Made by a program: the position numbers and the translations under genes
NCBI GenBank assembly: GCA_964627355.1
Contig: CAZVIS010000001.1
Coordinates: 37,086 to 101,085, forward strand
Origin: an uncultured Rhodobacterales bacterium
GTDB lineage: Bacteria > Pseudomonadota > Alphaproteobacteria > Rhodobacterales > Rhodobacteraceae
DNA length: 64,000 bases
Direction: 5' to 3'
Part shown: positions 1 through 56,378 of the stretch, in pieces
Position numbering within the stretch: the first letter of the stretch is position 1
Layout: each line of letters starts with the position of its first letter
The notes under the pieces: generated by a model
Databases searched by the model: none
What the model was told of the DNA's origin: nothing
Seen by the model: only the letters and a program-made list of their open reading frames with translations

Positions 1-720
1 GCCGTTGTAGAAGAAATATCCGATGTCGAGGTTTTTCAGGTGCTCATAGCCGTTCAGCTGCTCGTAGTAGGTATAGGTCACCGTTTCGAACTTGGCCTCG
101 TCGGTCGGCATCAGAACCGCTTCGGCGTCGCCCCGGAAATAGCTGCCGGTCATGGCGACGATGTGCGCCCGATCCCGCGCCATGAAGGCCCCGAGGTGTC
201 CGCCCAGCTTGTTGTCGGGGTTTGCGCTGACATGGTGGAATTCATCGATGGCGATCAGGCGGTCGTCAAAGGCATCGACCCCGAACCGTTCCACGGCGAA
301 GCGGAAAGTGGCATGGGTGCAGACCAACACGCGGTCACTGCTTTCCAGAAACGCACCGACCGAGTTCACCTTGCCGCCATCCGTGCCGGGCGAGTTGCAA
401 AGGTTCCACCGTGGCTCGACCTTCCAGTCAGCCCAGAAGCCGAATTTGGACAGCGGCTCATCGGCGAAACTGGATCCGATCGACTTTTCCGGCACCACGA
501 TGATCGCCTGCTTCAGGCCCTGATTGTGCAGCTTGTCCAGCGCGATGAACATCAACGCCCGGCTTTTGCCGGAAGCGGGGGGCGACTTGATCAGCAGGTA
601 TTGCTCTCCCCGCTTTTCATAGGCCCGTTCCTGCATGACACGCATGCCCAGTTCGTTGGCCGTGGTCGAACTGCCGTTGCGGGCATAGGTGACAGAGACG
701 GAAGGGACGGATTGTACCAT
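1..720 (-). CDS. SF2 DExH-box helicase, N-terminal ~240 aa only (gene runs off the left edge)
   Basis: My own minus-strand translation from the ATG at 720 reads MVQSVPSVSVTYARNG... It shows Walker A LLIKSPPASGKSRAL, motif II LIAIDEFHH and motif III VAMTGSY. It is absent from the ORF track because there is no stop codon inside the window. Confidence 0.8.
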   Translation of the reverse strand, partial: MVQSVPSVSVTYARNGSSTTANELGMRVMQERAYEKRGEQYLLIKSPPASGKSRALMFIALDKLHNQGLKQAIIVVPEKSIGSSFADEPLSKFGFWADWKVEPRWNLCNSPGTDGGKVNSVGAFLESSDRVLVCTHATFRFAVERFGVDAFDDRLIAIDEFHHVSANPDNKLGGHLGAFMARDRAHIVAMTGSYFRGDAEAVLMPTDEAKFETVTYTYYEQLNGYEHLKNLDIGYFFYNG

Positions 721-722
721 GT

Positions 723-1130
723 TCAAATCCTGTACTCAGAAAGCAGTTTGATCGCCCAGCTGGGCGGCGAGGGCCAGCTTCGCCCGCCTGCCAGATGCCA
801 GGTGACGCTGTCGGCGCCGATCAGGCCATTTTGTTCAAGGTGCAGGACAAAGGCATCGTGATCGTAGATGTAGCAATCCTGACCGTGGAAAAAGGCGATG
901 TGGATGGATTTCCCAAGATACTTCTTGTCGATGGTCAGCCGTCCCTTCAGTTGCACTTTCAGGATGGTTTCGCCATCGACGTGACAGGCCATGAAATCGG
1001 CGCCCTGCCAGTCGTCTGTCAGGCGCAGGCAGTTGTAGCCGTAGTCGGCCAGCCGTGCCGCAACCTTCTGGAAATTGTGGTTTTCCTTTTGGCGCGAGTT
1101 CAGGGACTCGTAGGCGACTGGTCTAAACAC
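723..1130 (-). CDS. 135-aa hypothetical protein, possible small PD-(D/E)xK-fold nuclease
   Basis: ORF track. The GTG start overlaps the stop of the upstream MTase by 8 nt, and the gene ends 2 nt before the helicase ATG. The segment GADFMACHVDGETILKVQLKGR fits a D...(E/Q)xK pattern, but only weakly. Confidence 0.45.
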   Translation of the reverse strand: MFRPVAYESLNSRQKENHNFQKVAARLADYGYNCLRLTDDWQGADFMACHVDGETILKVQLKGRLTIDKKYLGKSIHIAFFHGQDCYIYDHDAFVLHLEQNGLIGADSVTWHLAGGRSWPSPPSWAIKLLSEYRI

Positions 1131-3888
1131 GGGCGCTGACCTTTGGTTTTGTCGTCATCTTCGTATACATATCGAATAGCTTCTCCAGCCGTTCGGTGTC
1201 GTTCTTGAAGCGGCGGCCGATGTAGATGCGTTCGAGGGTTTCGTCGTTGCGGTCGTGGGCGGCTCGCAGGTTTTCGGGCATCCTTTCGGGGTCGTAGAGA
1301 TCGGCGATGGTGGCGGGGAAATGCGCTTCGCGGGCGAGGAGGATTTCTTCGGCGCAGGCAGTCAGGTCAGCCTTGTTCTTTTCGGTGAGGGTGGGGACGG
1401 GGAAGGTGTTCCAGCCGAGGGTGTTGGAGTAGCTGAAATCCGTCCGCATCCGAACGCAGACGGTGCCGATCCAGACCCAGTGCAGGCGCGACGCGATCAG
1501 CGCCATGTTCCAGAGCGGGGCGTCGCACAAAGCAAAGTTCCGATCCCCGACAATCGTGTTCTTGCCAAAGTAATCTATTGGAAGAAATTCCCTGTTTTCA
1601 GAGCTAACCCGTGGAACCACGATGCAATCTGTGTCGCAAATCCCCTGAATTTGCCTGAACTTATGGGGGTATTTCGCATAGTCGCGCGTCGATGAAGCTG
1701 AACTTTCCGAACGCATTTTTCGGACGCCCTCAATTCGCGTTGCAATCGGCGCCACATTCATGGCCTTTTGAACTGCATCATCTTCAATCCAGATGCAGTA
1801 ACGAGAGAGCCCATTGATTAGCTCTTGCGCTCCGACGAAGCGACGAACAAACGGTATAGCCGCTGCTTCTGATCGTGCGAGATCATCTTTTTCATCGGCA
1901 CTGAGCAGCAGATTGCCCCCGTCCGTAGGCATGTTTCCTCGGATCATGTAACCCCGAACGTCCTTTGCTCGCGAAAGCGGCTCGATGATCACGTTTTGAC
2001 CCGCCACGAGGTAAGCGTTGATTTGGTCCACTTCTCGCAGGCCCGTTTCACCGACGGTATCGGCAGAGAACAACTTTTTGCGCTTCGTGTCGGGTTCGCC
2101 GACGCCGACGATCACGACCGTTACGCCTGCATTATGGGCGGCCAGATTGGACCATTTAAACGAAGTGTGCGCGAACTTGATCTCCTGGCCGTTTCCAAAA
2201 ATCATCGGCCAGAGTATGGGCACTTGTTCGCCTTGGCATATTGAGTTCGTGCTCACGAAGGCGAAGCAACCCTTTGTTTTCGTCAAGAAATCGGTAGCCT
2301 TTTTGAACCAGCAGGCGACGAGGTCAAGCGAGCGCCAAGTCTTCGTGTGCTGCCCAAACACATGCGACACATCACTTTTTTGGTCTGCACTTTGTCGCGC
2401 ACTGCCAACATACGGCGGGTTTCCGCAAATATACGTCTCTCCACCCTCGTTCTCGAAATCGATCTGCGCCTGATCCAATGGTGTGTGGAACAGATCCTCA
2501 GCCTGAAACCGCACCCCGGTCCCCGTCGGCGGGCAGATCGACAGCCAGTCCAGCCGCAGAGCGTTGCCCTGGGTGATCCAGTTCTGCGCGTTCAGCGGCA
2601 AGAACTCGGCCCGCGCCTGCACCTCACCGCGATAGGTCACGTCGCACTGGAACTCGGCGATGATTAGCGCCAGACGGGCGATCTCGGCGGCGAAATCGCG
2701 CAGCTCGATGCCGCGGAAGTTGGTCTTGGGGATGGCGGTCTTGGCGTCAGCCTCGCCCCGGCGCTGGTTGATCACCGCCTCGATCGCGCGCATTTCTTTG
2801 TAGGCGATGACAAGGAAGTTGCCCGATCCGCAGGCGGGGTCGAACACCCTGATCTTGGCCATCCGGTTGCGCAGGTTCAGTAGTTTGCGGGGGTTGTCGC
2901 CCGCCTCCTCCAGCTGCGCGCGCAGGTCATCGAGGAACAGCGGGTTCAGCACCTTCAGGATATTCGGCACCGAGGTGTAGTGCATGCCAAGCGCGGACCG
3001 CTCACCCTCATCCGCGACGGCCTGGATCATGCTGCCGAAGATGTCGGGGTTGATCTTGGTCCAGTCGAGGCTGCCGATGTGCAGAAGGTAGCTGCGCGCG
3101 ATCTTAGAAAAGCGCGGAACGTCGGTGTCGCCCGAGAAGAGGCCGCCGTTTACATAGGGGAAGGCGTTGGCCCAGTTGCGCAGGTCGGCCGTGGGGCGGG
3201 CGGGCAGCGCGGTGTTCATCGCGCGGAAGATTTCGCTGATGACCCAGTGGGTGTTGGTGCTGGCCGGGTCGCTGAACTGGCTGACGGTGGTGGTGAACAG
3301 GGTGCCGCCGTTGAAGATGCCGGTGTCTTCGGCGAAGAAGCAGAAGATCAGCCGGGCCATGAAGTGGTTCATGTCATGGCGGCGCGCCTCGGTTCCCCAT
3401 TCGGGGTTGTCCTTGAGCAGTTCGACATAAAGTCGGTTCAGGCGGCCAGTCGCCTTGATGTCAAAAGCGCTTTCGCGGATCTGTTTGACGGTGGTGATGC
3501 CCGCGAGCGGCAGGAAAAAGCCGAAATGGTCATGGAAATCGGGATAGGCGCAGGCAACCGGTGGGTCGTCAGAGGTGAGGTCTTCGGCCTCGAGCGTCTC
3601 GCCATCGGTGGCCAGGATGAAGCGGGCCTTGCCCTTCGCCGTGGCCGGACTGGCGCGCAGGGCGGCGATGGTGGTCGAGGTTTGCCCGGGCGCGCAGGTC
3701 GCAATGTGGATATTGTTGGTCTGAAGGACGCCACCCAGATCGGACTTGTTCGACACGCCGGTGCGCAGGCGTTTGAGGGTGGTTTCCTTGTTCCCGAAGG
3801 CTTCAAGGAACTGAAACGGGAATTCCTGCCGGTCAAAGGGTTTTTCGGCCAGTTCGGAAATGGCCTGTTCAATCTCTACGGCGTTCAT
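1123..3888 (-). CDS. MmeI-family (type IIG/IIL-like) N6-adenine DNA methyltransferase; N-terminal nuclease motif appears degenerate
   Basis: Motif I is VFDPACGSGNFLV and motif IV is CGNPPYVGS. The N-terminus (PFQFLEAFG) and C-terminus (DLYDPERMPENLRAAHDRNDETLERIY..FKNDTERLEKLFDMY) are MmeI-like. At the expected ExK position the sequence reads IHIATC. The likely ATG at 3888 overlaps the vapC stop as ATGA. Confidence 0.8.
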   Translation of the reverse strand: MNAVEIEQAISELAEKPFDRQEFPFQFLEAFGNKETTLKRLRTGVSNKSDLGGVLQTNNIHIATCAPGQTSTTIAALRASPATAKGKARFILATDGETLEAEDLTSDDPPVACAYPDFHDHFGFFLPLAGITTVKQIRESAFDIKATGRLNRLYVELLKDNPEWGTEARRHDMNHFMARLIFCFFAEDTGIFNGGTLFTTTVSQFSDPASTNTHWVISEIFRAMNTALPARPTADLRNWANAFPYVNGGLFSGDTDVPRFSKIARSYLLHIGSLDWTKINPDIFGSMIQAVADEGERSALGMHYTSVPNILKVLNPLFLDDLRAQLEEAGDNPRKLLNLRNRMAKIRVFDPACGSGNFLVIAYKEMRAIEAVINQRRGEADAKTAIPKTNFRGIELRDFAAEIARLALIIAEFQCDVTYRGEVQARAEFLPLNAQNWITQGNALRLDWLSICPPTGTGVRFQAEDLFHTPLDQAQIDFENEGGETYICGNPPYVGSARQSADQKSDVSHVFGQHTKTWRSLDLVACWFKKATDFLTKTKGCFAFVSTNSICQGEQVPILWPMIFGNGQEIKFAHTSFKWSNLAAHNAGVTVVIVGVGEPDTKRKKLFSADTVGETGLREVDQINAYLVAGQNVIIEPLSRAKDVRGYMIRGNMPTDGGNLLLSADEKDDLARSEAAAIPFVRRFVGAQELINGLSRYCIWIEDDAVQKAMNVAPIATRIEGVRKMRSESSASSTRDYAKYPHKFRQIQGICDTDCIVVPRVSSENREFLPIDYFGKNTIVGDRNFALCDAPLWNMALIASRLHWVWIGTVCVRMRTDFSYSNTLGWNTFPVPTLTEKNKADLTACAEEILLAREAHFPATIADLYDPERMPENLRAAHDRNDETLERIYIGRRFKNDTERLEKLFDMYTKMTTKPKVSARV

Positions 3889-4307
3889 TCGGCATTCCAA
3901 GGGTTAATCACGCGAACGCCGCAGCCGTCGAAATCCTTGACGTTGCGGGTGGCAATAGGGGCATCTGTGGCGCGGGCGATTGCGGCTATCTGGCAGTCGG
4001 CCTCGGCAATGGGTCGGCCCGCAGCGCGGCGCTGCGCCGCAATCTCGGCGTAGGCTTTGGCAGCAAGGCTATCGAAGGGCAGAACCCGTGACTGGAAATC
4101 CTGATCGATCATCGCGTCGATGGCCAGTTGCAGCCGGTCACGGCGCTGACCTTCCGGAAGGATCGCGACACCGGTGCGCAGTTCCGCCTCGGTGACCGCC
4201 GAGATGAACAGATCGCCTGCGTCATGGTCGCCGAACCAGTCCAGCACGATCTGGGCGGGCTCGGTCCGCATCAGTTCCGAGATTACGTTGGTGTCGAGGA
4301 GGATCAT
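3885..4307 (-). CDS. vapC: PIN-domain toxin VapC/FitB
   Basis: MILLDTNVISELMR... and ...PIATRNVKDF are typical PIN signatures. The gene lies directly downstream of a ribbon-helix-helix (RHH) antitoxin gene. Confidence 0.85.
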   Translation of the reverse strand: MILLDTNVISELMRTEPAQIVLDWFGDHDAGDLFISAVTEAELRTGVAILPEGQRRDRLQLAIDAMIDQDFQSRVLPFDSLAAKAYAEIAAQRRAAGRPIAEADCQIAAIARATDAPIATRNVKDFDGCGVRVINPWNAE

Positions 4308-4310
4308 CGA

Positions 4311-4553
4311 TTACTCGAAGTCCGGTGTGGGCCGCATCGGGCTGCGCTTTGTCGGCGGCAGGTCAATGCCGCCCACCGCCGCGAACCGGGCATGGATGGC
4401 CTGTCCAAGGTTCTTCGGGGCGCTGGGCTGGCCGACAACCTGCCGCAGGATGTCGCGGGCTTCTTCCTCCATCGATCGACCGTGTTCGGCCGCGCGCACC
4501 CGCAGGCGGCGCTTTACATCGTCGTCGAGATTGCGAATCGTGATGCTGGCCAT
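4311..4553 (-). CDS. vapB: Ribbon-helix-helix antitoxin (VapB/FitA-like)
   Basis: MASITIRNLDDDVKRRLRVRAAEHGRSMEEEARDIL is a typical RHH N-terminus. The ATG at 4553 is preceded by GGAGGG. The track ORF starts further upstream, probably spuriously. Confidence 0.8.
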   Translation of the reverse strand: MASITIRNLDDDVKRRLRVRAAEHGRSMEEEARDILRQVVGQPSAPKNLGQAIHARFAAVGGIDLPPTKRSPMRPTPDFE

Positions 4554-4672
4554 GTTGCCCTCCGGTTGCAGCACTGAAGATAGGCAGTGATTGCATTGCA
4601 ATCAAGACAAAGTTGCCTTGCGGACCGGACCAGTTCTTACCAGTCTCCGTGATTATCGCATTGGAAATACAG

Positions 4673-5353
4673 CTATTTACCCGGCGATACGAGCCACGGC
4701 CGCACCTTCGGCATCGCCGCCGTCACCTCGACTTCGCGCAGCATCCCCCCCGCTATCAGCCCATCACGCACCCAGTCGATCGCGAGCCACCAGTCTTCAT
4801 AGCCGCATCGGGCAGATGCGATCTGCTCCGGGTGGGGCCGCCAGGTGACTGGGCAAGCGAGGATGTCTATGGTTCTCCATGTGCCTCGTGCGGTTGGGCC
4901 TTGAACCCGTATCCGCACGGTGCCCACCACGATGGTGGCGGAGCGTTCGCCATGCTGGTTCTGTTTGGTTTCGACCGGCACGCAGCGCGGCACGGCGTCG
5001 GGCATCCAGTCCGGGGTCAGCCCGGCCCTTGCCAGTTCCGCCACCCGGATCGCCATGCGGATGCCGCCGAGACTTTGGGGCATTCCGGCGACGGTGGCGG
5101 CGATCACCTCGGCATCCGGGTGGGTGTAGCTACCCCTCTTGTGCTGGCCGCCGTCCACTTTGCAGCCAAGCATGGCGCGTTGCAGCAGGACATACTCCAG
5201 GCCGAAGCCGAAGCCTTCCTCGGTCACGTCCTTTGGCGGGGGCAGTTCAAGTTGCGCCTTCTCCACACCAAACGTCCATTCGAGAGCCGCCTGCACGCCC
5301 AGCGCGCGTTTGATGCGGGTGCCGCCCGGGGCGATCTTTCCTTGCATCGTCAT
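4673..5353 (-). CDS. Conserved phage hypothetical protein (226 aa), paralog of 59386-60060
   Basis: ORF track. The ATG at 5353 forms an ATGA overlap with the stop at 5350-5352 of the upstream frame-B ORF. The second copy in the window has the same arrangement. Confidence 0.7.
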   Translation of the reverse strand: MTMQGKIAPGGTRIKRALGVQAALEWTFGVEKAQLELPPPKDVTEEGFGFGLEYVLLQRAMLGCKVDGGQHKRGSYTHPDAEVIAATVAGMPQSLGGIRMAIRVAELARAGLTPDWMPDAVPRCVPVETKQNQHGERSATIVVGTVRIRVQGPTARGTWRTIDILACPVTWRPHPEQIASARCGYEDWWLAIDWVRDGLIAGGMLREVEVTAAMPKVRPWLVSPGK

Positions 5354-6523
5354 TCGGGCCAACCTTCAAACAGCATCAACTGGGCCGGGCGCTGGGCCTC
5401 GCCCGATGGCCGCCAGATCCACGGGCCGGAGGCCATGGGCAGCTGCGAGAGCGCGCCACGCATGTGCTGCTGCCAGAGGGTGAACTCCGTTGCCGAGCAC
5501 GCGCAAAGCGCGTGCCCGATGGGCCAGCCCATCAGCCATCCGACGAAGAGCGGGTTCAGCCGCCGCCGCGCCCGACCCTTCAGGATTCGCCGCGAGACGA
5601 CGCGCCCATGCGAGGCAATCATCGAAGCCCAGAGCGGGCGCGAGATCGGGGCGTGCGGCGAGGACCGCTGCCCATCCGGCGTAATCGCCGGGACCGGGCG
5701 GGTGAAGCCCTGTTCCGCCCGGTAGTGCAGGATGTCCATCCGGGACTTGCCATCCGCCCGAGTAATGCTGGCCTCGCTGGATCCTTTCCAGTTCTGCGCC
5801 GCTGGTGTCGGCCATTGCGCGGCCTGCGCTGGAAGAGGTGGCGCCCCACCCGAACCGTAACTCTGGCCCGGGCCGCCCTTCGCGCCATCCGTCGCCTTCG
5901 GCGTCGACCAGTTGGTGATGCCCAGCGCCAGCGCCTCGGCCTTTCGGGTGAAGTCGCTGTTCCCGGCCGGGTTGTAGCGTTCCGTGCCCGGATGCAGGCT
6001 CATCGGTGTGGGCCAGGATGAAGATGCGCAGCCGCTGGTGCGGCGCGCCAACTTCTGCCGCCGAGAACAGGCCCGCCGCAGGCGTGTAGCCCATTGCCCA
6101 AAGCTCTCGCAGGACGGCTTCAAGGCCGAGGGTGACATGACCGGGGACGTTTTCGAGGAAGACCCACTTTGGGCGGCACTCGACGATGACGCGTGCGACA
6201 TCTGGCCAGAGGTGGCGGGGGTCGTCGGCGCCACCGCGCTTTCCGGCCGCGCTGAAGGGTTGGCAGGGATATCCGGCCAAGACCATGTCGAAAGCCCCGC
6301 GAAAGGGGCGGGCATAGAAGTTTCGCAGATCATCCCAGATTGGGGCAGGTGCGAAGTATCCTGCGCGCTGGGCGGCGATGAGGACGGCGCGGGGCCAGTC
6401 CTCCCACTCGACAAAAGCGCGGGTGTGATATCCGGGCTCTGCGAGCATGAGGCCCATATCCAGCCCTCCGCCGCCTGCGCAGAGGGATAATCCGTGCCGG
6501 GGACGTGACACCATGCCATTCAC
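5350..6523 (-). CDS. Phage C5-cytosine DNA methyltransferase whose coding signal changes frame after motif VIII (frameshifted or split gene)
   Basis: The frame of ORF 5366-6586 carries motif I LCAGGGG, motif IV YPCQPFS, motif VI FLENV and motif VIII QRLRIFILAH. The frame of ORF 5350-6519 carries WSTPKATDGAKGG, WPTPAAQNWKGS and RRLNPLFVGWLMGWPIGH. The GTG at 6523 overlaps the upstream stop as GTGA. Confidence 0.7.
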
Positions 6524-7488: not shown

Positions 7489-7880
7489 GGGGCGGCCCTC
7501 CGTGCTGGAAGCTGCGCCCGGCTGGTGAAGCCGTTGTCGGCCAAGGCACCCAGCGCGTCGTCAACCGAGCGCACCAGCGCCCAGCCAAAGCCCTGCGCGC
7601 AGACGGTGTCGCGGAAGACCTCCTGAGATTTGCGCAATCGGCCGGTTTCGCTTTTGACCTCGAGGAACAGCACGCGGCCGCCGCAGATCACGATCAGGTC
7701 GGCAAACCCGGCATGGACGCCCATGCCGACGAGGATCGATTGCCGCCTTGCGCCGCGGGGCCCGGCCTCGGTCACCTCGTTGGCGCAGTGATGGACGATG
7801 GCATCTCGGGGCAGGGCGAAGCGCAGGGCTTGGACAATGGCGCGCTGGGCGTCGGCTTCGGGGGTGCTGCGCCGATTCAT
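7485..7880 (-). CDS. VRR-NUC domain nuclease
   Basis: GFADLIVICGGRVLFLEVKSETGRLRKSQEVF shows the D...ExK and Q signature. The ATG at 7880 gives MNRRSTPEADAQRAIV. The stop overlaps the next gene. Confidence 0.75.
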   Translation of the reverse strand: MNRRSTPEADAQRAIVQALRFALPRDAIVHHCANEVTEAGPRGARRQSILVGMGVHAGFADLIVICGGRVLFLEVKSETGRLRKSQEVFRDTVCAQGFGWALVRSVDDALGALADNGFTSRAQLPARRAAP

Positions 7881-9313: not shown

Positions 9314-9344
9314 GTTCAGGGCGAGTTCAACGCCCGCCCTGAAC
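9314..9344. terminator. Hairpin between the convergent genes 8680-9279 and the integrase gene
   Basis: GTTCAGGGC (9314-9322) pairs with GCCCTGAAC (9336-9344) around a 13-nt loop. The second arm lies inside the 3' end of the integrase gene. Confidence 0.3.
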
Positions 9345-10565: not shown

Positions 10566-10640
10566 GATGAACCACCTCCGTGCTGACGTGACACAGGCGT
10601 GATCCGCGCTGCAGTTCAACTCAAACATCGGCCGAAGGGG

Positions 10641-10701
10641 TGGCAGGGTGGCATAAAGTGGCAGATTGAAACGGACGTCTGTGCCGGTCACTTTTTTGTT
10701 C
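10641..10701. promoter_or_regulatory. Second copy of the TGGCAGGGTGGCATAAA element, upstream of int
   Basis: See 8463-8523. It contains three TGGCA half-sites at 8-10 bp spacing. Confidence 0.5.
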
Positions 10702-12099: not shown

Positions 12100-12100
12100 C

Positions 12101-14507: not shown

Positions 14508-14536
14508 AAAAATCCCAATATATCAATAACCTAGAA

Positions 14537-50414: not shown

Positions 50415-51041
50415 ATGCGACCCGGTCGCACCCCACCGCCACGCCAGGCCCTGACCCGCCGCGCACTCGGCACCCGGTTCGCCGGGGCCGCAGTTGCAAT
50501 CGGTTTCGGGCAAGGGGCTGCGGCGAGCGAGGCCGCGACTACAGTGCCGGTGCTCGACCCTGACCTGCGCGACGCAGCGCTGCGGGGCCTGGCACTGGCG
50601 GGCTATCGCGGTGATCCGGTCACTGCCGCTGTGGCAAATGCTGCTCTGGCACGGCTGGCGGAAACCGATCCCGAGGCCGGACTGCTTGGCCGCATCTACC
50701 AGATGCTCGATGTCCGCCCGGCCGCCTACTGGCCCGAACGCGTCCCGGCGGCCGCAGCGGCCGATCTCGCCATCCTGCACGCGGCGATCCACGCATCACA
50801 GCCGGTGGCCTTCGGCTACACCGACCTTGACGGCAACGAGACCACGCGCACCGTGCTGCCGCTGGCGCTGGTCCACCCGCCGCAGGGCGTGAAGCTGCTC
50901 GCCTGGTGCGCCGAGCGCCAGGACTTCCGCCAGTTCTTCGTGCGCTCGATGCAGGGCCCCACGCCCCGGCCGGGGGATTTCAAGGGTGACAGGATGGCCC
51001 TGCTGGAAGGGTTGCTGGAGAAGTACGACGGTCGTGCCTGA
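50415..51041 (+). CDS. WYL-domain protein (start uncertain)
   Basis: QPVAFGYTDLDGNETTRTVLPLALVHPPQGVKLLAWCAERQDFRQFFVRSM fits the WYL pattern. No clear N-terminal HTH was seen. Confidence 0.6.
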   Translation: MRPGRTPPPRQALTRRALGTRFAGAAVAIGFGQGAAASEAATTVPVLDPDLRDAALRGLALAGYRGDPVTAAVANAALARLAETDPEAGLLGRIYQMLDVRPAAYWPERVPAAAAADLAILHAAIHASQPVAFGYTDLDGNETTRTVLPLALVHPPQGVKLLAWCAERQDFRQFFVRSMQGPTPRPGDFKGDRMALLEGLLEKYDGRA

Positions 51042-51100
51042 CGTGCTGCTGGCCGGTACTGCGTCCGATGGGCCTGGCACCGGCCAGTTACGTCGCGAGG

Positions 51101-51261
51101 GTGGCTTCCGACAGGGGTGGCTTCCTCGAAGTGGCTTCCGAAAACTGGCCAAGGTGGCTTCCTCAAAAGAATCCAGCTTGGCCAGATCGTGATTTTCTAA
51201 GCCACTGATATCATGTCGTTTACCCGACTGGCTTCCGCCAAGTGGCTTCCAAGTGGATTCC
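51101..51261 (+). repeat. Array of seven 9-bp direct repeats GTGGCTTCC (five exact, two one-off)
   Basis: Exact copies start at 51101, 51117, 51131, 51154 and 51242. The variants are CTGGCTTCC at 51228 and GTGGATTCC at 51253. The array is intergenic, between the WYL gene and hsdM. Confidence 0.75.
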
Positions 51262-51382
51262 CCGGTGAAAGTGCCTGCCGCTAGCGAAACGCCGCGCTGC
51301 GCCCCCCCGCATACAAAAGGGGTCGGGGAGGAACCATGCCAGGGGGGGCGAGCTGCGCGTACTCTGGCGCAATCATGACGGG

Positions 51383-51411
51383 TTGATGGATGCAAGTGTC
51401 GCGCGTATCAT
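51383..51411 (+). promoter_or_regulatory. Sigma70-like promoter candidate for the type I R-M operon
   Basis: TTGATG-N17-TATCAT lies about 65 nt upstream of the hsdM start. Confidence 0.35.
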
Positions 51412-51477
51412 CGTTCAGGAAAAACAGCGGAAGTTGAAGGCAAACAAGCCCTTCCGACGACTTTGGAAGGTGAAATC

Positions 51478-53499
51478 TTGAGCAAGGACACGATCAAGAC
51501 CAACGCCGCTTACATCTGGTCCATCGCGGAAATCCTGCGCGGGGATTTCAAGCAGTCTGAATACGGCAAGATCGTCCTGCCCTTCACCGTCCTCCGACGC
51601 CTCGACTGCCTGTTGGAGCCGACCAAAACCGCAGTGCTTGAAACGGCCGCAACGCTGCCGGATGAAACCGACGACGAGGCGCGTGCGATGATCTTGACCG
51701 CTATCGCCTCGCCGGGTGGACAGATTTACAACGAAAGCCAGTTCACCTTTGCCTCGTTGCGGAGACAAGACCCACGCCAGCTGCGGGCGAACTTGATCGA
51801 TTACATCGCCAAGTTCAGCCCGAACGTCCGCGATATCTTCATCGAAAAGTTCGAGTTCACCGAAGCGCTGAAAAAGCTCGATAGTGCTGGAATCCTCTGG
51901 GCCGTGTTTGACCGGGTGAGCCAGATTGACCTGCATCCCGAGGCTGTGTCCAACCTCGAAATGGGATACCTGTTCGAGGAGCTGATCCGCCGCTTCTCGG
52001 AAATGTCCAACGAAACCGCCGGAGAGCATTTCACCCCGCGCGAAGTGGTGCGCCTGATGGTCGACCTTCTGATCGCCAATGATCAGGGCGCTTTGTCAGG
52101 GCGGCACATCGTTCGGCGCATATACGATCCGGCGTGCGGAACGGGCGGCATGTTGTCCATCGCCGAGGAACGCATGGTGGAGATGAACCCGACCCTGCAC
52201 GTCGACCTGTTCGGCCAGGAACTGAACGCGGAGTCCTTCGCCATCTGCAAATCCGACATGCTGGTGAAAGGCCACGACGCGTCGCGCATCGCCTTCGGCA
52301 ACACCCTTATTCAGGATGCGCACAAGGGCCAGACCTTCCACTACATGCTGTCGAATCCGCCCTATGGCGTGGATTGGAAGAAGTACGCCGACCCGATCAG
52401 GGAAGAAGCCGCCGAACTTGGCGTGGAAGGCCGGTTTGGCGCTGGGCTGCCGCGCATCTCCGATGGTCAGCTGCTGTTCCTTCAGCACATGATCTCGAAG
52501 ATGCGCGACGATGAAAATGGCTCGCGCATCGGAATCGTCATGAACGGATCGCCACTGTTCACCGGCGGTGCGGCATCGGGTGAGTCCGAAATCCGGCGCT
52601 GGATGCTGGAAAGCGACTGGGTCGAGGCGATCATCGCGCTGCCGACCGACATCTTCTACAACACCGGCATTCAGACCTATGTGTGGATCCTGACCAACCG
52701 CAAGCCGGTCGACCGGCGCGGCCGGGTTCAGCTGATCGACGGCTCGGGCGAACGGTTCTGGCGGTCCATGCGCAAATCCCTCGGATCGAAACGCCGGGAA
52801 ATCACTGACGAGGCCCGGGCCGAGATCGTGCGCATCTACGGTGAGTATCTGAATGGAAATGCAGGCTATGGCGATGTGTCCAAGATCTTCCCGACCACGG
52901 ATTTCGGCTATCGCGAGATCCGGGTGGAGCGCCCTCTTCGCCTCCGGTTCGAGGTCACGGACGACGCGCTCATCGCGCTTGCCCAAGACAAGGCCATGGA
53001 AAAGCTGACCGCCACAGACAGGCAGGACCTGCTTGTGGCGTTGAAAACTGACCTTGGTGGCGAAGTGTTCATGGACCGGGTTGATTTCGACAGCGCCCTT
53101 TCCCGGGTTCTGCGCGATGCGCGGCTGAAAGTCGGTGCGCCGGTGCGCAAGGCCAGCCTTGCCCAGTTCGGCACACCGGATGAAGATGCCGCGATCTGCC
53201 GGGACAGGGACGGCAACCCCGAACCCGACACCAGTCTTCGGGATCACGAACTTGTCCCCCTGCTGGAAGACTGGCAGTCGTACTTCGACCGCGAGGTGCT
53301 GCCGTTCGTTCCCGATGCCTGGGTGGACACAGCCTACACCGATGACAGTGACGGCCTGGTGGGTCGCGTCGGGTATGAGATCAACTTCAACCGCTACTTT
53401 TACCGCTACGTTCCGCCGCGCGCGTTGGCCGAGATCGACGCCGAACTGAAGACGCTGGAGTCGGAAATCGCCGCGCTGCTGTCCGAGGTGGTGGTGTGA
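51478..53499 (+). CDS. hsdM: Type I R-M methyltransferase subunit
   Basis: GEHFTPREVVRLMV, YDPACGTGGML and LSNPPYGVDW are present. The TTG at 51478 is preceded by GGAAGG. Confidence 0.9.
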   Translation: MSKDTIKTNAAYIWSIAEILRGDFKQSEYGKIVLPFTVLRRLDCLLEPTKTAVLETAATLPDETDDEARAMILTAIASPGGQIYNESQFTFASLRRQDPRQLRANLIDYIAKFSPNVRDIFIEKFEFTEALKKLDSAGILWAVFDRVSQIDLHPEAVSNLEMGYLFEELIRRFSEMSNETAGEHFTPREVVRLMVDLLIANDQGALSGRHIVRRIYDPACGTGGMLSIAEERMVEMNPTLHVDLFGQELNAESFAICKSDMLVKGHDASRIAFGNTLIQDAHKGQTFHYMLSNPPYGVDWKKYADPIREEAAELGVEGRFGAGLPRISDGQLLFLQHMISKMRDDENGSRIGIVMNGSPLFTGGAASGESEIRRWMLESDWVEAIIALPTDIFYNTGIQTYVWILTNRKPVDRRGRVQLIDGSGERFWRSMRKSLGSKRREITDEARAEIVRIYGEYLNGNAGYGDVSKIFPTTDFGYREIRVERPLRLRFEVTDDALIALAQDKAMEKLTATDRQDLLVALKTDLGGEVFMDRVDFDSALSRVLRDARLKVGAPVRKASLAQFGTPDEDAAICRDRDGNPEPDTSLRDHELVPLLEDWQSYFDREVLPFVPDAWVDTAYTDDSDGLVGRVGYEINFNRYFYRYVPPRALAEIDAELKTLESEIAALLSEVVV

Positions 53500-53674
53500 T
53501 TTTTTCGCGACCCAGCGCGGATCGTTATTGCTTTGGTGATGACGCTCCACTAACTCTACCCATAACAAGACCCGCCACGCCTCGGGCAGAGCTTCGGCTT
53601 TGTACTGCGCACCCTGGCGGGTTACTTGTTTTTGGGGCCTGCCTTTGTGCCGAAACCGGCAGCAGGCTGGCCCG

Positions 53675-54583
53675 ATGAAGTTCACCAAGCCTGCCACGTC
53701 CATCACCGATCAACTCGCGCTGCTGCGCCGTCGCGGCATGGTGGTCGATGATGAACCTGCCGCGCGCCACTACCTCGCTTACATCTCGTACTATAGACTG
53801 CGTGCCTATTGGATCCCGTTCGAAGGCCCCGCGCCCGCCGCAGGTGACCATGCCTTCAAGCCGGGCACTACGTTTGATGATGTCTTGGCGCTGTATCTGT
53901 TCGACCGGCATCTGCGTCTCCTCGTCCTGGATGCGATCGAGCGGGTGGAAGTCGCGCTGCGGGCTGCGTGGGCGCACCACGTCGCCATGACGCATGGACC
54001 GCACGGGCACATCGACCCTGCACATCACCAGAACCCAATCTTCCACGCCAACTCACTTGTCGATTACCAAAAGGAAATCGACCGCTCTAACGACCTGTTT
54101 ATCAGCCATTATCTTAGAACCTACGATAATCCCGCGATGCCTCCTGTCTGGATGGCGGCAGAGATCGTGTCGCTTGGCGCTCTGTCAAAATGGATCGGCA
54201 ACATGGTGGCCCGCCAGGACCGCCAAGCTATCTGCAAATCCTTCGGGGTTGATGAGAAAATACTGGTATCCTTCGCGCACCATATTTCGACCGTGCGAAA
54301 CACCGCCGCTCATCATGGATGCCTGTGGAACCGGCGGTTCACGGTCAAAATGACGGTCCCTGGCTATCCTGCCAACCTGGCTATCGCCATGCGCGGGGCC
54401 GACGAACGACGGCTGCACAACACTCTTGTGATGCTGGATCACCTGTTGGGCGTTGTCGCGCCGCACAGCGGTTGGCGCGGGCGGCTGGTGGCGCTGATCA
54501 ACGGATGCCCCCAGGCCGATCCCGCGGCGATGGGCTTTCCGACCGACTGGCGTGCCCGTGCGGCGTGGAGGGTGGGTGCATGA
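53675..54583 (+). CDS. Abi-like (AbiD/AbiF, Abi_2 family) protein embedded in the type I locus
   Basis: MKFTKPATSITDQLALLRRRGMVVDDEPAARHYLAYISYYRLRAYW...VRNTAAHHGCLWNRRF is the characteristic Abi_2 pattern. Its stop overlaps the hsdS ATG as ATGA. Confidence 0.8.
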   Translation: MKFTKPATSITDQLALLRRRGMVVDDEPAARHYLAYISYYRLRAYWIPFEGPAPAAGDHAFKPGTTFDDVLALYLFDRHLRLLVLDAIERVEVALRAAWAHHVAMTHGPHGHIDPAHHQNPIFHANSLVDYQKEIDRSNDLFISHYLRTYDNPAMPPVWMAAEIVSLGALSKWIGNMVARQDRQAICKSFGVDEKILVSFAHHISTVRNTAAHHGCLWNRRFTVKMTVPGYPANLAIAMRGADERRLHNTLVMLDHLLGVVAPHSGWRGRLVALINGCPQADPAAMGFPTDWRARAAWRVGA

Positions 54584-55920
54584 TCACTCCGGAAAATGCC
54601 ATCAGCCTGACCCCGCCCCCAGACTGGCGCGTGGTGCCGTTCTGGTCACTGTTCCGACGCACGAAATCGATTGGCCATCCCGATGAGGAGCTGCTTTCCG
54701 TCTACCGTGACCATGGAGTGATCCCCACATCCTCCCGCGACGACAACCACAACAAACCATCCGAAGACCTGACGGGCTACCAGTTGGTCACTGAGGGCGC
54801 GTTGGTCACAAACAAGATGAAGGCGTGGCAGGGGTCAATCGCAATCTCGCGTCACCGCGGCATCGTCAGTCCAGCCTATTACGTCTACCAGCCGCTCAGC
54901 GAAGAACATGACCAGTTCTTGCACTACCTGCTGCGTTCGGAACCCTACATTGCGCTTTACCAGCGGATTTCAAAGGGCGTGCGGGTCAGCCAGTGGGATT
55001 TGGAACACGAAGCTCTGCGCACGATTCCGGTCACGCTTCCTGACTTCGCCACGCAGAAACAAATCGCCGATTTCCTAGACACCGAGACCGCCCGCATAGA
55101 TGCGCTGATCGAGAAAAAGCATCAGTTTCATGAAATTGTTGTTGAGCGCGAGGAAGCCTCGTTCTTGGATGCAGTTACTGGTCGAAACCTGATGTGTGAT
55201 CGTCAGCCTTCGGGCGTGCGCTGGATCGGCGAACTGCCATTTGGCTGGCTTGCGCCAAAATTCACGCAGGTCGCAAGGCAGGAAACTGGACACACGCCCA
55301 GTCGTAAGGAGCCGTCCTACTGGATCCCCGAGGAGTGCGTGATCCCGTGGGTGTCGCTGGCAGATGTTTGGCAGTTGCGCAGCGGCGAAGCTGTATATCT
55401 GGCCGACACTGCAGAAAAGATAAGTGCATTTGGTATGGCGAACTCGTCAGCACGACTGTTGCCCAAGGACACGGTTATCCTGTCTCGCACGGCATCTGTC
55501 GGATTCGTCGCGATCATGGCCACCGACATGGCAACGACACAGGACTTCGCAGCTTGGATTCCCGGCCCAAGAGTAAGGTCGAGATTCATCTACTATGTGC
55601 TGCGTGCAATGAAGCCCGAGTTTCGCAGGCTCATGATGGGATCGACCCATCAAACCATTTATATGCCCGACATCCGCTCGTTCCGGACACCACTCCCGCC
55701 ACTGTCGGAGCAGGATCGGATTATTGCAGCTCTTGATGCCTCGATTGGGACGTATCGGCAGGTCAACGTGAAGATTCAAACATCCATCACCCGACTCCGC
55801 GAGTACCGGGCTGCTTTGATCACGGCCGCCGTAACTGGTCAAATTGATGTTGCCGCCAACGCCCGCTCGGGTTCCGTCCAGCGCCAGCTTGACCACATTT
55901 CAGAGGAGGTTAGCGCTTGA
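54580..55920 (+). CDS. hsdS: Type I R-M specificity subunit
   Basis: It has a two-TRD layout with conserved helices (ETARIDALIEKKHQF and TSITRLREYRAALITAAVTGQIDV). Confidence 0.85.
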   Translation: MITPENAISLTPPPDWRVVPFWSLFRRTKSIGHPDEELLSVYRDHGVIPTSSRDDNHNKPSEDLTGYQLVTEGALVTNKMKAWQGSIAISRHRGIVSPAYYVYQPLSEEHDQFLHYLLRSEPYIALYQRISKGVRVSQWDLEHEALRTIPVTLPDFATQKQIADFLDTETARIDALIEKKHQFHEIVVEREEASFLDAVTGRNLMCDRQPSGVRWIGELPFGWLAPKFTQVARQETGHTPSRKEPSYWIPEECVIPWVSLADVWQLRSGEAVYLADTAEKISAFGMANSSARLLPKDTVILSRTASVGFVAIMATDMATTQDFAAWIPGPRVRSRFIYYVLRAMKPEFRRLMMGSTHQTIYMPDIRSFRTPLPPLSEQDRIIAALDASIGTYRQVNVKIQTSITRLREYRAALITAAVTGQIDVAANARSGSVQRQLDHISEEVSA

Positions 55921-56330
55921 GCCAAGAGGTCGCCCAACTCAAGGCATTCATTCCTGCCTTCATGCGCCAGCACATGGAAGCGGTCCCGCCCCAGCGCACC
56001 ACGTCCGGCAAGGTGCATCTGGAGGTCTGGCGCTCGCCCGGCAAGCGGCGGCCAGTGGGGCTGGAAATGGATCACGACGCCCATGTAAACTTGTGGCTGG
56101 TACGAATGAACGTGCCGCCTTCCTTGCCTGCCTCGGTCGGCGTCTTTCAGAAAGAGCCCAAGGGCCGCGGCTGGACGGATGCCGCAGGTGACGGCGCGAA
56201 CAGCAACCTCAGCAGCTATGACGAGTTCCGCACCAAGCGGATCACTCGCCTTGCTGTCTCATCGATCGAGGATGCGCGGATCGTGTTGGAGGCTTTGCTT
56301 GACGCACAGGCTGGCAAGGCCGGTAGTTGA
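55917..56330 (+). CDS. 137-aa hypothetical protein between hsdS and hsdR
   Basis: ORF track. The TTG start overlaps the hsdS stop as TTGA. Confidence 0.5.
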   Translation: MSQEVAQLKAFIPAFMRQHMEAVPPQRTTSGKVHLEVWRSPGKRRPVGLEMDHDAHVNLWLVRMNVPPSLPASVGVFQKEPKGRGWTDAAGDGANSNLSSYDEFRTKRITRLAVSSIEDARIVLEALLDAQAGKAGS

Positions 56331-56378
56331 GGTTCATTTCCGGCAGCCTGGCGCTGCTCGCGACAGTGAGGGTTGATC

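What the first reader, a model, noticed from the sequence alone, without database searches (positions are those of the whole stretch)
1..4553. vapBC-coupled operon: MmeI-family methyltransferase with a degenerate nuclease motif, a 135-aa PD-(D/E)xK-like protein and a DExH helicase
On the minus strand the order is vapB, vapC, MTase, a 135-aa ORF and a helicase, with almost no intergenic space. The vapC stop and MTase start form ATGA at 3885-3888. The MTase stop and the 135-aa start overlap by 8 nt. The helicase ATG lies 2 nt after the 135-aa stop.

The MTase has the MmeI-family hallmarks: DPACGSGNFL, NPPY, and the C-terminal LYDP..MP..L..AH...ER...LF..Y. Where MmeI-type enzymes carry their N-terminal D...ExK nuclease core, this protein reads SDLGGVLQTNNIHIATC, with no acidic residue or Lys. 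So it looks like a methylase/recognition module that has lost its own cleavage site.

The small downstream protein has a weak D...QxK pattern (ADFMACHVDGETILKVQLK). The next gene is an SF2 helicase with PPASGKS and DEFHH. Together this reads like a restriction system split into trans-acting parts, or an Hma / yeeA-yeeB-like methylase-helicase system (named from memory, unverified). It is fused transcriptionally to a toxin-antitoxin pair.

It occupies exactly the locus where the sibling prophage carries a type I R-M plus Abi cluster, which independently argues for a defence role.
Basis: partly seen in the sequence, partly recalled or inferred. Interest (0 to 1): 0.75.

Follow-up and report, generated by a model that had tools for sequence, protein, structure and literature searches.

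The report
YeeA-type methylase-helicase defence operon in prophage
This is an ordinary member of an already described but still poorly understood family of restriction-like defence systems, made of a cleavage-dead MmeI-type methylase, a helicase and a separate GIY-YIG nuclease; here it sits in a prophage cargo slot behind a toxin-antitoxin pair and holds a small extra nuclease-fold gene that looks like an independently mobile passenger.

Summary

**The system.** The methylase is a full-length MmeI homologue. It has lost the E-x-K half of the nuclease motif but keeps the Asp. This is the "second group" of MmeI homologues described by Morgan et al. in 2009 (B. subtilis YeeA/DnmA type). Those proteins are always followed by a YeeB-like SF2 helicase and a YeeC-like GIY-YIG/T5orf172 nuclease.

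**The nuclease.** The window ends inside the helicase. Contigs about 91-93% identical to the window show the rest of the helicase (680 aa) and a 402-aa GIY-YIG protein. That protein, not the 135-aa ORF, is the likely nuclease.

**The 135-aa ORF.**
- It is a real, strongly conserved family with a PD-(D/E)xK fold and an invariant E-D-QxK signature.
- It is optional: close relatives of the operon lack it.
- Homologues are also found alone inside unrelated operons such as ruvA-ruvB, with lower G+C than their flanks.
- I read it as an embedded, independently mobile passenger.

**Other features.**
- vapBC is FitAB-like and sits in this position in about 17% of related operons. Other small DNA-binding genes take its place elsewhere.
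- The sibling prophage carries type I R-M plus Abi_2 in the same slot.

**Verdict.** This is a new member of a known kind, of moderate interest.

The parts
4577..4605 (-). Candidate operon promoter: -35 TTGATT at 4600-4605, 17-nt spacer, -10 TATCTT at 4577-4582. It is overlapped by a perfect palindrome, TGATTGCA-A-TGCAATCA (4588-4604), a likely VapB/FitA operator.
   Evidence: Read from the sequence. The block is conserved upstream of vapB in L001, L022 and L031. It falls below the threshold of the consensus promoter scan, so this is an inference.
4311..4553 (-). vapB antitoxin, FitA-like ribbon-helix-helix, 80 aa
   Evidence: Pfam FitA-like_RHH, E 1.9e-22.
3885..4307 (-). vapC PIN-domain toxin, FitB-like, 140 aa. 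Its stop overlaps the methylase ATG (ATGA at 3885-3888).
   Evidence: Pfam PIN 1.1e-14. Full-length match to Neisseria FitB, PDB 2h1c, E 3.9e-27.
1123..3888 (-). MmeI-family (YeeA/DnmA-type) N6-adenine DNA methyltransferase and recognition protein, 921 aa
   Evidence: Pfam MmeI_N, MmeI_hel, MmeI_Mtase, MmeI_TRD and MmeI_C all match. PADLOC REase_MTase_IIG 1.6e-288. MmeI structure 5hr4, E 3.3e-139.
3694..3741 (-). Degenerate nuclease motif in the N-terminal domain. D50 is kept (MmeI D70). A63 replaces E80. C65 replaces K82.
   Evidence: hhalign of a 61-sequence YeeA-type profile against a 121-sequence MmeI-type profile: probability 89.5%, E 2.3e-7. Column counts: 0 of 61 acidic and 0 of 61 Lys, against 121 of 121 in the MmeI type. 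MAFFT gives the same mapping for E80 and K82.
1519..2448 (-). Mosaic specificity region (residues 481-790: end of the methylase domain plus the target-recognition domain), swapped relative to otherwise near-identical operons
   Evidence: Identity to L001, L002 and L004 is 27-62% here, against 96-100% in residues 1-480 and 93-97% in residues 836-921. blastn shows a gap in nucleotide similarity over the same stretch.
723..1130 (-). 135-aa PD-(D/E)xK-fold protein with an invariant E16...D45...Q60-x-K62 signature; an optional embedded gene
   Evidence: 1028 homologous clusters. 849 representatives at the 50% identity level. AlphaFold2 pLDDT 91.9. Foldseek matches I-Ssp6803I and Hjc. Invariant residues counted. 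No Pfam, PADLOC, NCBIfam or PHROGs hit.
1..720 (-). N-terminal 240 codons of a YeeB-like SF2 helicase (motif I PPASGKS, motif II DEFH), cut by the window edge
   Evidence: Pfam DEAD/ResIII. The full 680-aa protein, with motifs III (TGS) and VI (QIIGRATR), is seen in L001.
4673..5362 (-). 229-aa prophage gene (phrog_9306) that forms one border of the cargo slot
   Evidence: PHROGs 7.2e-54. 78% identical to the sibling copy at 59386-60060.
50415..59372 (+). The equivalent cargo slot of the sibling prophage: WYL protein, HsdM, Abi_2, HsdS and HsdR
   Evidence: Pfam hits. The slot is bordered by the 229-aa gene homologue and by an N6_N4 methylase (48828-50087). That methylase is 93% identical to the gene found downstream of the YeeABC-type cargo in L002.

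Best explanation
The locus is a YeeA(DnmA)-YeeB-YeeC-type restriction-like defence operon. It sits in the variable cargo slot of a temperate phage of an alphaproteobacterium.

**What is shown**
- The 921-aa protein is an MmeI homologue with intact methyltransferase and target-recognition domains. Its N-terminal domain is homologous to the MmeI nuclease domain but has lost the catalytic Glu and Lys.
- It is followed by an SF2 helicase.
- In contigs about 91-93% identical to the window at the DNA level outside the methylase specificity region (they encode the identical 135-aa protein), the helicase is followed by a 402-aa GIY-YIG/T5orf172 protein with intact motifs.

**What is inferred**
- The methylase marks one strand of an asymmetric site on host DNA and supplies sequence recognition.
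- On unmodified DNA its N-terminal domain recruits the helicase and the GIY-YIG nuclease.
- The helicase translocates in a type I-like manner and the GIY-YIG subunit cuts.
- The FitAB-like vapBC pair supplies the operon promoter, which is probably autoregulated through a palindrome over the -35 box. It may act as a controller or as an addiction module.

**The 135-aa gene**
It encodes a probably active PD-(D/E)xK enzyme of an uncharacterised family (E-D-QxK). It is not a core subunit. It is one of many accessory genes lodged at the methylase-helicase junction, and it appears to move on its own, possibly like a free-standing homing endonuclease.
For: **Identity of the system**
- All five MmeI Pfam domains match, and MmeI itself is hit at E 3e-139.
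- The E-x-K is lost in 61 of 61 YeeA-type N-termini, against 121 of 121 intact in the MmeI type.
- The full operon is seen in L001, L004, L006 and L008, which encode the identical 135-aa protein and are 91-93% identical at the DNA level outside the specificity region.
- The GIY-YIG motifs are present: IYVLRS...KIGVT...R...EWF.
- The same methylase-helicase-GIY-YIG trio occurs on plasmids of Klebsiella, Agrobacterium and Ligilactobacillus. On a Moraxella plasmid it has accessory genes inserted between the methylase and the helicase. The helicase alone matches 266 plasmid records in all.
- The literature defines this group by these three genes (PMC2731913; PMC9973331).
- A Vibrio yeeAB locus protects against some phages (bioRxiv 10.1101/2021.05.05.442762).

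**Signs of active selection**
- The specificity region is 27-62% identical between operons that are otherwise 96-100% identical.
- The operon sits in a slot that holds type I R-M plus Abi_2 in the sibling prophage.

**The small gene is optional and mobile**
- It is absent from operons whose helicase is 77-83% identical.
- It is found in only 8 plasmid records, against 266 for the helicase.
- In 23 of 80 species-level loci no methylase, helicase or GIY-YIG gene was found in the sequence held around it. That includes about 16 loci with several kb held on both sides; a few of the 23 contigs are too short to tell. Examples are ruvA-ruvB and rlmH-M23 peptidase.
- In those loci it has 51.7% G+C against 58-59% in the flanks.
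- Its divergence correlates poorly with the core genes: rho 0.14-0.41, against 0.66-0.83 among the core genes.
- The same junction holds PDDEXK_4, AlbA_2, RhuM, Fic, NucS-like, ParDE, RelB/YafQ or DarTG-like genes in other loci.

**The upstream module**
- VapC is coupled to the methylase in 10 of 59 loci.
- HigA-like, RHH or HTH genes take the same position in about 11 more.
Against: - The GIY-YIG gene is not in the window. Its presence in this genome is inferred from contigs that are about 91-93% identical, not identical.
- No restriction activity has been shown for any member in vitro. YeeA alone does not cut (PMC2731913).
- The B. subtilis locus neither restricts plasmids nor protects against three phages (PMC7261158, PMC9973331).
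- Direct homology to B. subtilis YeeB and YeeC was not tested here.
- The small gene lies between the methylase and the helicase in 57 of 80 loci. In most of those it sits directly upstream of the helicase (gaps of 2-6 nt or a 4-nt overlap), though about ten loci have other genes in between. It has the same order (nuclease then motor) as in HsdR or type ISP enzymes. This is what a true subunit would look like.
- The homing idea has no biochemical support. Only one locus of 80 shows a flanking repeat.
Confidence: 0.7

Rival explanations
1. The 135-aa PD-(D/E)xK-like protein is the trans-acting nuclease that replaces the lost catalytic site of the methylase. It works with the helicase as a split HsdR-like subunit in an obligate four-part system.
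For: - The protein has a PD-(D/E)xK fold with a near-invariant E16-D45-Q60-x-K62 constellation.
- In most system loci it lies directly upstream of the helicase, with 2-6 nt gaps or a 4-nt overlap.
- The order nuclease-then-motor mirrors type I HsdR and type ISP enzymes (my own knowledge).
- 57 of 80 loci with close homologues have it between the methylase and the helicase.
Against: - Operons with helicases 77-83% identical lack it entirely, and the methylase and helicase genes abut.
- The family's conserved nuclease is the GIY-YIG protein.
- Homologues at 56-73% identity sit alone in housekeeping operons.
- Its divergence is decoupled from the core genes.
- Other unrelated genes occupy the same junction.
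Confidence: 0.15
2. The operon is a restriction-dead relic. Only the methylase works, acting as an orphan epigenetic methyltransferase as proposed for B. subtilis DnmA. The helicase and nuclease genes are on their way to decay.
For: B. subtilis dnmA-yeeB-yeeC shows no plasmid restriction and no protection against three phages (PMC7261158; PMC9973331).
Against: - All reading frames are intact and tightly coupled.
- The helicase and GIY-YIG motifs are intact in relatives.
- The trio is conserved across many genera: the GIY-YIG gene accompanies the methylase and helicase in 55 of the 57 system loci.
- The specificity domain is swapped between near-identical operons, which points to selection on target choice.
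- The operon sits in a prophage defence slot.
- Vibrio yeeAB defends against some phages.
Confidence: 0.12
3. The 135-aa protein is an embedded second-line effector held in check by the host R-M-like complex, like the PrrC anticodon nuclease inside a type Ic R-M locus. It is neither a selfish homing-type gene nor a subunit.
For: - The methylase-helicase junction collects the same kinds of accessory genes that are found inside type I R-M loci: Abi_2, RhuM, Fic, AlbA_2 and toxin-antitoxin pairs.
- The sibling's type I locus itself holds an embedded Abi_2 gene.
- Some orphan copies lie next to other R-M-like genes (L077, L060).
Against: - Many orphan copies sit in plain housekeeping operons with no defence neighbour (ruvAB, rlmH, cobQ, glnD).
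- No toxicity or trigger is known.
Confidence: 0.2

Closest known systems
B. subtilis DnmA (YeeA)-YeeB-YeeC cluster: the "second group" of MmeI homologues of Morgan et al. 2009 (PMC2731913), studied further in PMC7261158 and PMC9973331
   Same: - An MmeI homologue similar along its whole length but without the PD-ExK residues.
- An SF2 DEAD-type helicase next to it.
- A GIY-YIG/T5orf172 protein after the helicase.
- Horizontally acquired context, with toxin-antitoxin genes nearby.
   Different: - Here a FitAB-type vapBC pair is translationally coupled to the methylase.
- A 135-aa PD-(D/E)xK-fold gene is inserted between the methylase and the helicase.
- The locus is prophage cargo.
- Direct sequence comparison with the B. 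subtilis proteins was not made.
MmeI (type IIL bifunctional restriction-modification enzyme, PDB 5hr4)
   Same: Same five-domain layout. Strong similarity from residue 87 to the C-terminus (E 3e-139). Same methylase motifs (DPACGSGNFL, NPPY).
   Different: MmeI cuts with its own D70-E80-K82 site and needs no partner. Here E80 and K82 are replaced by Ala and Cys, and partner genes follow.
Type I R-M systems (HsdM/S plus HsdR) with embedded accessory genes such as PrrC or Abi
   Same: - Separate recognition/methylation and motor/nuclease parts.
- A junction between the two halves that collects accessory genes.
- The sibling prophage carries such a locus in the same slot.
   Different: - Recognition is by a fused MmeI-type target-recognition domain, not a separate S subunit.
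- The nuclease is a separate GIY-YIG protein, not a PD-(D/E)xK domain fused to the motor.
Neisseria gonorrhoeae FitAB (VapBC-type toxin-antitoxin, PDB 2h1c, 2bsq)
   Same: A ribbon-helix-helix antitoxin plus a PIN toxin, with a full-length match (E 4e-27). A palindromic candidate operator lies in the promoter.
   Different: Here the pair is fused transcriptionally to a defence operon, with the toxin stop overlapping the methylase start.
I-Ssp6803I (a PD-(D/E)xK homing endonuclease, PDB 2ost) and archaeal Hjc resolvases
   Same: They are the best structural matches of the 135-aa protein: small alpha-beta-beta-beta core, TM-score about 0.5, E 3e-4 to 4e-3.
   Different: - No detectable sequence similarity.
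- The motif is Q-x-K rather than E-x-K.
- The gene is free-standing inside operons, not inside an intron.
- No activity is known.

Membership tests
YeeA/DnmA-YeeB-YeeC-type system (MmeI homologues lacking PD-ExK, Morgan 2009) | The methylase is similar to MmeI over its whole length apart from about the first 100 residues | tested here: met
   Five MmeI Pfam domains. phmmer against 5hr4 aligns residues 87-913 but not 1-86.
YeeA/DnmA-YeeB-YeeC-type system (MmeI homologues lacking PD-ExK, Morgan 2009) | Absence of the catalytic PD-ExK residues that align with MmeI D70, E80 and K82 | tested here: met
   E80 aligns to A63 and K82 to C65; D70 aligns to D50, which is kept. 0 of 61 relatives have Glu or Lys at these columns, against 121 of 121 in the MmeI type. 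More distant Klebsiella and Ligilactobacillus members also lack them.
YeeA/DnmA-YeeB-YeeC-type system (MmeI homologues lacking PD-ExK, Morgan 2009) | A flanking DEAD-type SF2 helicase (YeeB-like) | tested here: met
   Window 1-720 has motifs I and II. The full 680-aa protein is in L001. It is 42-53% identical to helicases of the same three-gene loci in Moraxella, Acinetobacter, Klebsiella and Ligilactobacillus.
YeeA/DnmA-YeeB-YeeC-type system (MmeI homologues lacking PD-ExK, Morgan 2009) | A GIY-YIG/T5orf172 protein (YeeC-like) after the helicase | tested here: inconclusive
   It lies outside the window. It is present in every full-length relative that encodes the identical 135-aa protein (L001, L002, L004, L006, L008) and in 55 of 57 system loci. 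Pfam T5orf172/MUG113 match.
YeeA/DnmA-YeeB-YeeC-type system (MmeI homologues lacking PD-ExK, Morgan 2009) | Direct homology to B. subtilis YeeB and YeeC | not tested
YeeA/DnmA-YeeB-YeeC-type system (MmeI homologues lacking PD-ExK, Morgan 2009) | m6A methylation of one strand of an asymmetric site, and methylation-sensitive restriction | not testable with these tools
   Needs methylome data and plaque or transformation assays.
MmeI-type type IIL bifunctional restriction enzyme | An intact N-terminal D...E-x-K catalytic site | tested here: not met
Hma (helicase-methylase-ATPase) system of PADLOC | Matches to Hma helicase, methylase and ATPase models | tested here: not met
   No Hma model appears among the PADLOC hits listed for the methylase (best 25 of 38 shown), and none for the helicase or the downstream proteins. 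No ATPase gene is part of the conserved core.
DISARM class 1 / BREX | DrmA/DrmB, or PglZ/BrxC partners, next to the methylase | tested here: not met
   Only partial DrmMI and PglX similarity, confined to the methylase. No such partners in any locus.
VapBC/FitAB type II toxin-antitoxin | A ribbon-helix-helix antitoxin followed by a PIN toxin with conserved acidic residues | tested here: met
   Pfam matches. The FitB alignment keeps D5, E42 and D104. The fourth acidic position was judged by eye only.
PD-(D/E)xK nuclease superfamily (135-aa protein) | An alpha-beta-beta-beta core fold | tested here: met
   AlphaFold2 pLDDT 91.9, with helix 12-28 and strands 32-41, 44-50 and 56-62. The Foldseek top hits are all PD-(D/E)xK proteins.
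PD-(D/E)xK nuclease superfamily (135-aa protein) | A catalytic D...(D/E)-x-K motif | tested here: inconclusive
   The motif is D45...Q60-x-K62, with Gln in 148 of the 151 aligned sequences (150 representatives plus the window protein). Whether a Q-x-K site cuts DNA cannot be told from sequence.
Free-standing homing endonuclease genes | Presence/absence polymorphism at a fixed site in otherwise syntenic loci, and insertion into unrelated conserved operons | tested here: met
Free-standing homing endonuclease genes | Cleavage of the empty site and copying of the gene into it | not testable with these tools
   Needs biochemistry or genetic crosses.

The most novel reading that the evidence does not exclude
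The 135-aa protein founds an undescribed family of small PD-(D/E)xK enzymes: 849 clusters at the 50% identity level, an invariant E-D-QxK signature, and no Pfam, PHROGs or PADLOC model. These genes behave as free-standing selfish genes that invade operons. They lodge at the 3' ends of genes in the host's orientation, as between ruvA and ruvB. One lineage has specialised on the methylase-helicase junction of YeeABC-type defence operons, either by homing or as a guard effector.
Probability: 0.3. Interest if true: 0.65.

Novelty: new member of a known kind. Interest (0 to 1): 0.4.

Why it matters
YeeA/DnmA-type systems are common: the helicase alone matches 266 plasmid records. How they work has been unknown since they were first noted in 2009, and the one model organism studied showed no phenotype.

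This locus and its relatives give natural material for a test:
- intact operons in a prophage defence slot;
- near-identical copies that differ only in the specificity domain;
- copies with and without the small nuclease-fold gene;
- copies with and without the toxin-antitoxin leader.

The finding itself does not change what is known about the family. The behaviour of the small gene is the only part that might be new.

Tried and rejected
- **Hma, DISARM and BREX:** no partner genes and no model hits beyond the methylase.
- **Plain MAFFT of four N-termini:** it gave an unreliable alignment of the first 100 residues. It was replaced by a profile-profile alignment.
- **Structure test of the methylase N-domain:** the AlphaFold2 model has pLDDT 81.5. 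Foldseek against the PDB gave nothing significant, only recurrent weak hits to the type IIL enzyme DrdV at E 0.06-0.3. This is inconclusive.
- **Sequence searches of the solved-structure library** with the helicase and the GIY-YIG protein found nothing.
- **Family libraries:** PADLOC, NCBIfam, Pfam and PHROGs give nothing for the 135-aa protein. It is absent from isolated phage genomes.
- **Target-site duplications around the small gene in 80 loci:** only one locus (L094) has one; the rest do not exceed shifted controls.
- **Fusions of the small domain to a helicase:** none among the best 150 representatives. The longer proteins carry unrelated N-terminal parts such as Nmad3 and ankyrin.
- **Promoter and terminator scan of 1-5000:** nothing above chance and no terminator between the genes.
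- **The 305-aa weak Mrr_cat protein downstream in L001:** it is not conserved; only 1 of 80 loci gave even a weak match, and not at that position.
Full report
**1. Observation.**

- vapB, 4311-4553.
- vapC, 3885-4307.
- A 921-aa methylase, 1123-3888.
- A 135-aa ORF, 723-1130, with a GTG start.
- The first 240 codons of a helicase, 720-1.

The junctions are ATGA at 3885-3888, an 8-nt overlap at 1123-1130, and a 2-nt gap before the helicase ATG.

Pfam finds FitA-like RHH and PIN for the first two genes. It finds all five MmeI domains in the methylase (MmeI_N 2.6e-36, MmeI_hel, MmeI_Mtase 4.5e-115, MmeI_TRD 1.6e-82, MmeI_C). It finds DEAD/ResIII in the helicase stub and nothing for the 135-aa ORF. 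PADLOC calls the methylase a type IIG enzyme (1.6e-288) and has no model for the other proteins. No terminator-like site lies between the genes.

**2. The methylase has lost its own cleavage site.**

MmeI residues 1-124 were checked against PDB 5hr4. They place D70, E80 and K82 in GFVDLFWPGILLIEMK.

Single-sequence searches align the window protein to MmeI only from residue 87 onward. I therefore compared two profiles. One was built from 61 N-termini of relatives of this protein. The other was built from 121 MmeI-type N-termini. hhalign gives 89.5% probability and E 2.3e-7.

| MmeI residue | Window residue | MmeI-type set | This clade |
|---|---|---|---|
| D70 | D50 | invariant, 121 of 121 | Asp in 61 of 61 |
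| E80 | A63 | invariant, 121 of 121 | A, K, L or V; never acidic |
| K82 | C65 | invariant, 121 of 121 | C, A or S; never Lys |

An independent MAFFT alignment maps E80 and K82 to the same two positions. More distant members from Klebsiella and Ligilactobacillus plasmids also lack the pair. So the domain is homologous to the MmeI nuclease domain but is catalytically dead.

A structure model of the domain (pLDDT 81.5) gave no significant PDB match, only weak recurrent hits to the type IIL enzyme DrdV. That test is inconclusive.

**3. What lies beyond the window edge.**

The exact 135-aa protein is encoded on many public contigs. L001, L004, L006 and L008 are 91-93% identical to the window at the DNA level outside the specificity region. 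They show the complete operon:
- RHH, PIN, the methylase and the 135-aa ORF;
- a 680-aa helicase with motifs I, II, III and VI;
- a 402-aa protein with a T5orf172/MUG113 domain and GIY-YIG-type motifs IYVLRS, KIGVT, R and EWF.

A further 305-aa protein with a weak Mrr_cat hit follows in L001 but is not conserved.

**4. This is a known kind.**

- Morgan et al. 2009 (PMC2731913) split MmeI homologues into two groups. The second lacks the PD-ExK motif and differs in the first 100 residues. It is "invariably" flanked by a YeeB-like DEAD helicase and a YeeC-like protein with GIY-YIG motifs. They proposed that the MmeI-like subunit gives specificity and host modification while the other two cut DNA. 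YeeA alone showed no cleavage.
- Later work named YeeA DnmA. It makes m6A at GACGAG, and the B. subtilis locus showed no restriction of plasmids or of three phages (PMC7261158, PMC9973331).
- A Vibrio yeeAB locus did protect against one phage group (bioRxiv 10.1101/2021.05.05.442762).
- The helicase of this operon matches 266 plasmid records. The plain three-gene order occurs in Klebsiella, Agrobacterium and Ligilactobacillus. In Moraxella osloensis other genes sit between the methylase and the helicase.

The missing nuclease is most simply the GIY-YIG protein.

**5. The 135-aa protein.**

It is a real gene.
- It has 1028 homologous clusters at the 90% identity level and 849 representatives at the 50% level. 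Most are stand-alone proteins of 130-150 aa.
- Among the 150 best representatives, E16, N19, D40, D45, Q60, K62 and Y71 are almost invariant.
- An AlphaFold2 model is confident (pLDDT 91.9). It shows helix 12-28 followed by strands 32-41, 44-50 and 56-62, which is the PD-(D/E)xK core.
- The best PDB matches are the PD-(D/E)xK homing endonuclease I-Ssp6803I (E 3e-4) and archaeal Hjc resolvases. SPARDA nuclease domains, RecU and EcoRV follow. The viral structure library gives resolvases and PD-(D/E)xK proteins.

The conserved Gln suggests a working Q-x-K variant rather than decay.

It is not a core part of the system.
- Operons with helicases 77-83% identical lack it, on Klebsiella pVA684-388 and on plasmids of Roseomonas, Actibacterium and Agrobacterium.
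- Only 8 plasmid records hold a homologue.
- A scan of one genome per species returned 80 loci with homologues of 54-97% identity. In 57 of them the gene lies between the methylase and the helicase. In 23 no methylase, helicase or GIY-YIG gene was found in the sequence held; a few of these contigs are too short to tell.
- In those 23 it sits tightly inside unrelated operons. Examples are between ruvA and ruvB (L094), between rlmH and an M23 peptidase (L068), before cobQ (L084), before a GNAT gene (L035), and next to type III-like or Abi_2-like genes (L077, L060).
- In these loci its G+C is about 7 points below both flanks.
- In L094 the insert is flanked by a perfect 19-bp repeat that duplicates the end of ruvA. 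No other locus shows this.
- Its divergence tracks the core genes poorly: rho 0.41, 0.27 and 0.14, against 0.66-0.83 among the helicase, the GIY-YIG protein and the methylase.

I conclude that it moves independently. Homing-endonuclease-like spread is the most attractive mechanism but is untested.

**6. The junction is a cargo site.**

Between the methylase and the helicase, other loci carry unrelated genes:
- PDDEXK_4, AlbA_2/HATPase_c_4, RhuM, Fic and NucS-like genes;
- ParDE-like and RelB/YafQ pairs;
- DUF4433 plus macro-domain genes (DarTG-like) in Moraxella.

These are the kinds of genes found inside type I R-M loci. The sibling prophage's type I locus has an Abi_2 gene between hsdM and hsdS.

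**7. The toxin-antitoxin leader.**

VapC is FitB-like (2h1c, E 3.9e-27). A VapC gene ends at the methylase start in 10 of 59 related loci, with VapC only 54-58% identical in some. The Roseomonas plasmid also has a PIN gene upstream of where the methylase should lie. Elsewhere the same position holds a HigA-like XRE protein (5 loci), RHH, HTH_17-like or RelB-like genes; 24 loci have nothing.

Upstream of vapB lies a conserved block: TTGATT, 17 nt, TATCTT, with the palindrome TGATTGCA-A-TGCAATCA over the -35 box. I infer an autoregulated promoter that drives the whole operon. In that reading the module acts as a controller and perhaps as an addiction element. This is inference only.

**8. Evidence that the system is under selection.**

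The window methylase is 96-100% identical to those of L001, L002 and L004 in residues 1-480. It is 93-97% identical in residues 836-921. It is only 27-62% identical in residues 481-790, which cover the target-recognition domain. Swapping of the specificity cassette between otherwise identical operons is what is expected of an active restriction-like system.

**9. Context.**

To the right of the operon lie a 229-aa phage gene, a C5 methylase, an HTH_36 protein, a VRR-NUC protein and an integrase at 9327-10706.

A second, related prophage fills about 20-64 kb. It carries a GTA-type tail protein, a portal protein and a terminase. Its early region at 59413-62600 is 81-88% identical to 4694-7818.

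In that prophage the slot between the 229-aa gene homologue (78% identical) and an N6_N4 methylase holds a WYL gene and a type I R-M system with Abi_2. In L002 the same N6_N4 methylase (93% identical) follows the YeeABC-type cargo.

**10. Verdict.**

The locus is a new member of a known but mechanistically unsolved kind of system. The one part that may be new is the small E-D-QxK gene family and its habit of lodging inside operons.

Noticed in passing
window 1519-2448 (methylase residues 481-790): The specificity region of the methylase is only 27-62% identical to that of operons which are otherwise 96-100% identical in residues 1-480 (L001, L002, L004). The target-recognition cassette has therefore been exchanged by recombination.
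   Followed up: partly
L094:7967-8419: In Paenochrobactrum gallinarii a homologue of the 135-aa gene sits between ruvA and ruvB. It is flanked by a perfect 19-bp direct repeat, TGTCGCAGTGACAGTTGAT. The first copy holds the ruvA stop codon and the second supplies the stop codon of the inserted ORF. The insert has 38.6% G+C against about 50% in the flanks.
   Followed up: partly
L015:4281-6631 (Moraxella osloensis plasmid p4): A RelB/YafQ pair plus a DUF4433 and a macro-domain gene (a DarTG-like pair) are inserted between the methylase and the helicase of a YeeABC-type operon.
   Followed up: no
window 53600-54583: An Abi_2 gene is embedded between hsdM and hsdS of the sibling prophage's type I R-M locus. 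A WYL-domain gene lies at 50415-51041, just upstream.
   Followed up: partly
window 11041-17239: To the right of the integrase lie a C5 cytosine methylase (11041-12099), a HATPase_c_3 protein (12101-14068) and, on the other strand, an 841-aa Hsp70-like protein (14714-17239). This may be another small defence-like islet between the two elements.
   Followed up: no
window 46991-50087: Two N6_N4 methylase genes of 443 and 419 aa lie close together on the same strand, separated by a 170-aa ORF. They share a 300-nt stretch at 76% identity (47922-48221 and 49678-49977).
   Followed up: no
L001:12286-12369 (helicase residues 626-653): The helicase C-terminus matches the Pfam pseudomurein-binding repeat. 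This explains the NCBI product name "pseudomurein-binding repeat-containing protein" for these helicases, which is probably a misnomer.
   Followed up: no
P0177 and P0132 (representatives of the 135-aa family): Some family members are predicted as fusions, with an Nmad3 domain or ankyrin repeats in front of the small domain. These may be read-through products of insertion at the 3' end of host genes.
   Followed up: partly
window 43301-43534 and 44152-44385: A 234-nt direct repeat at 91% identity, 851 nt apart, lies next to the terminase gene of the sibling prophage.
   Followed up: no
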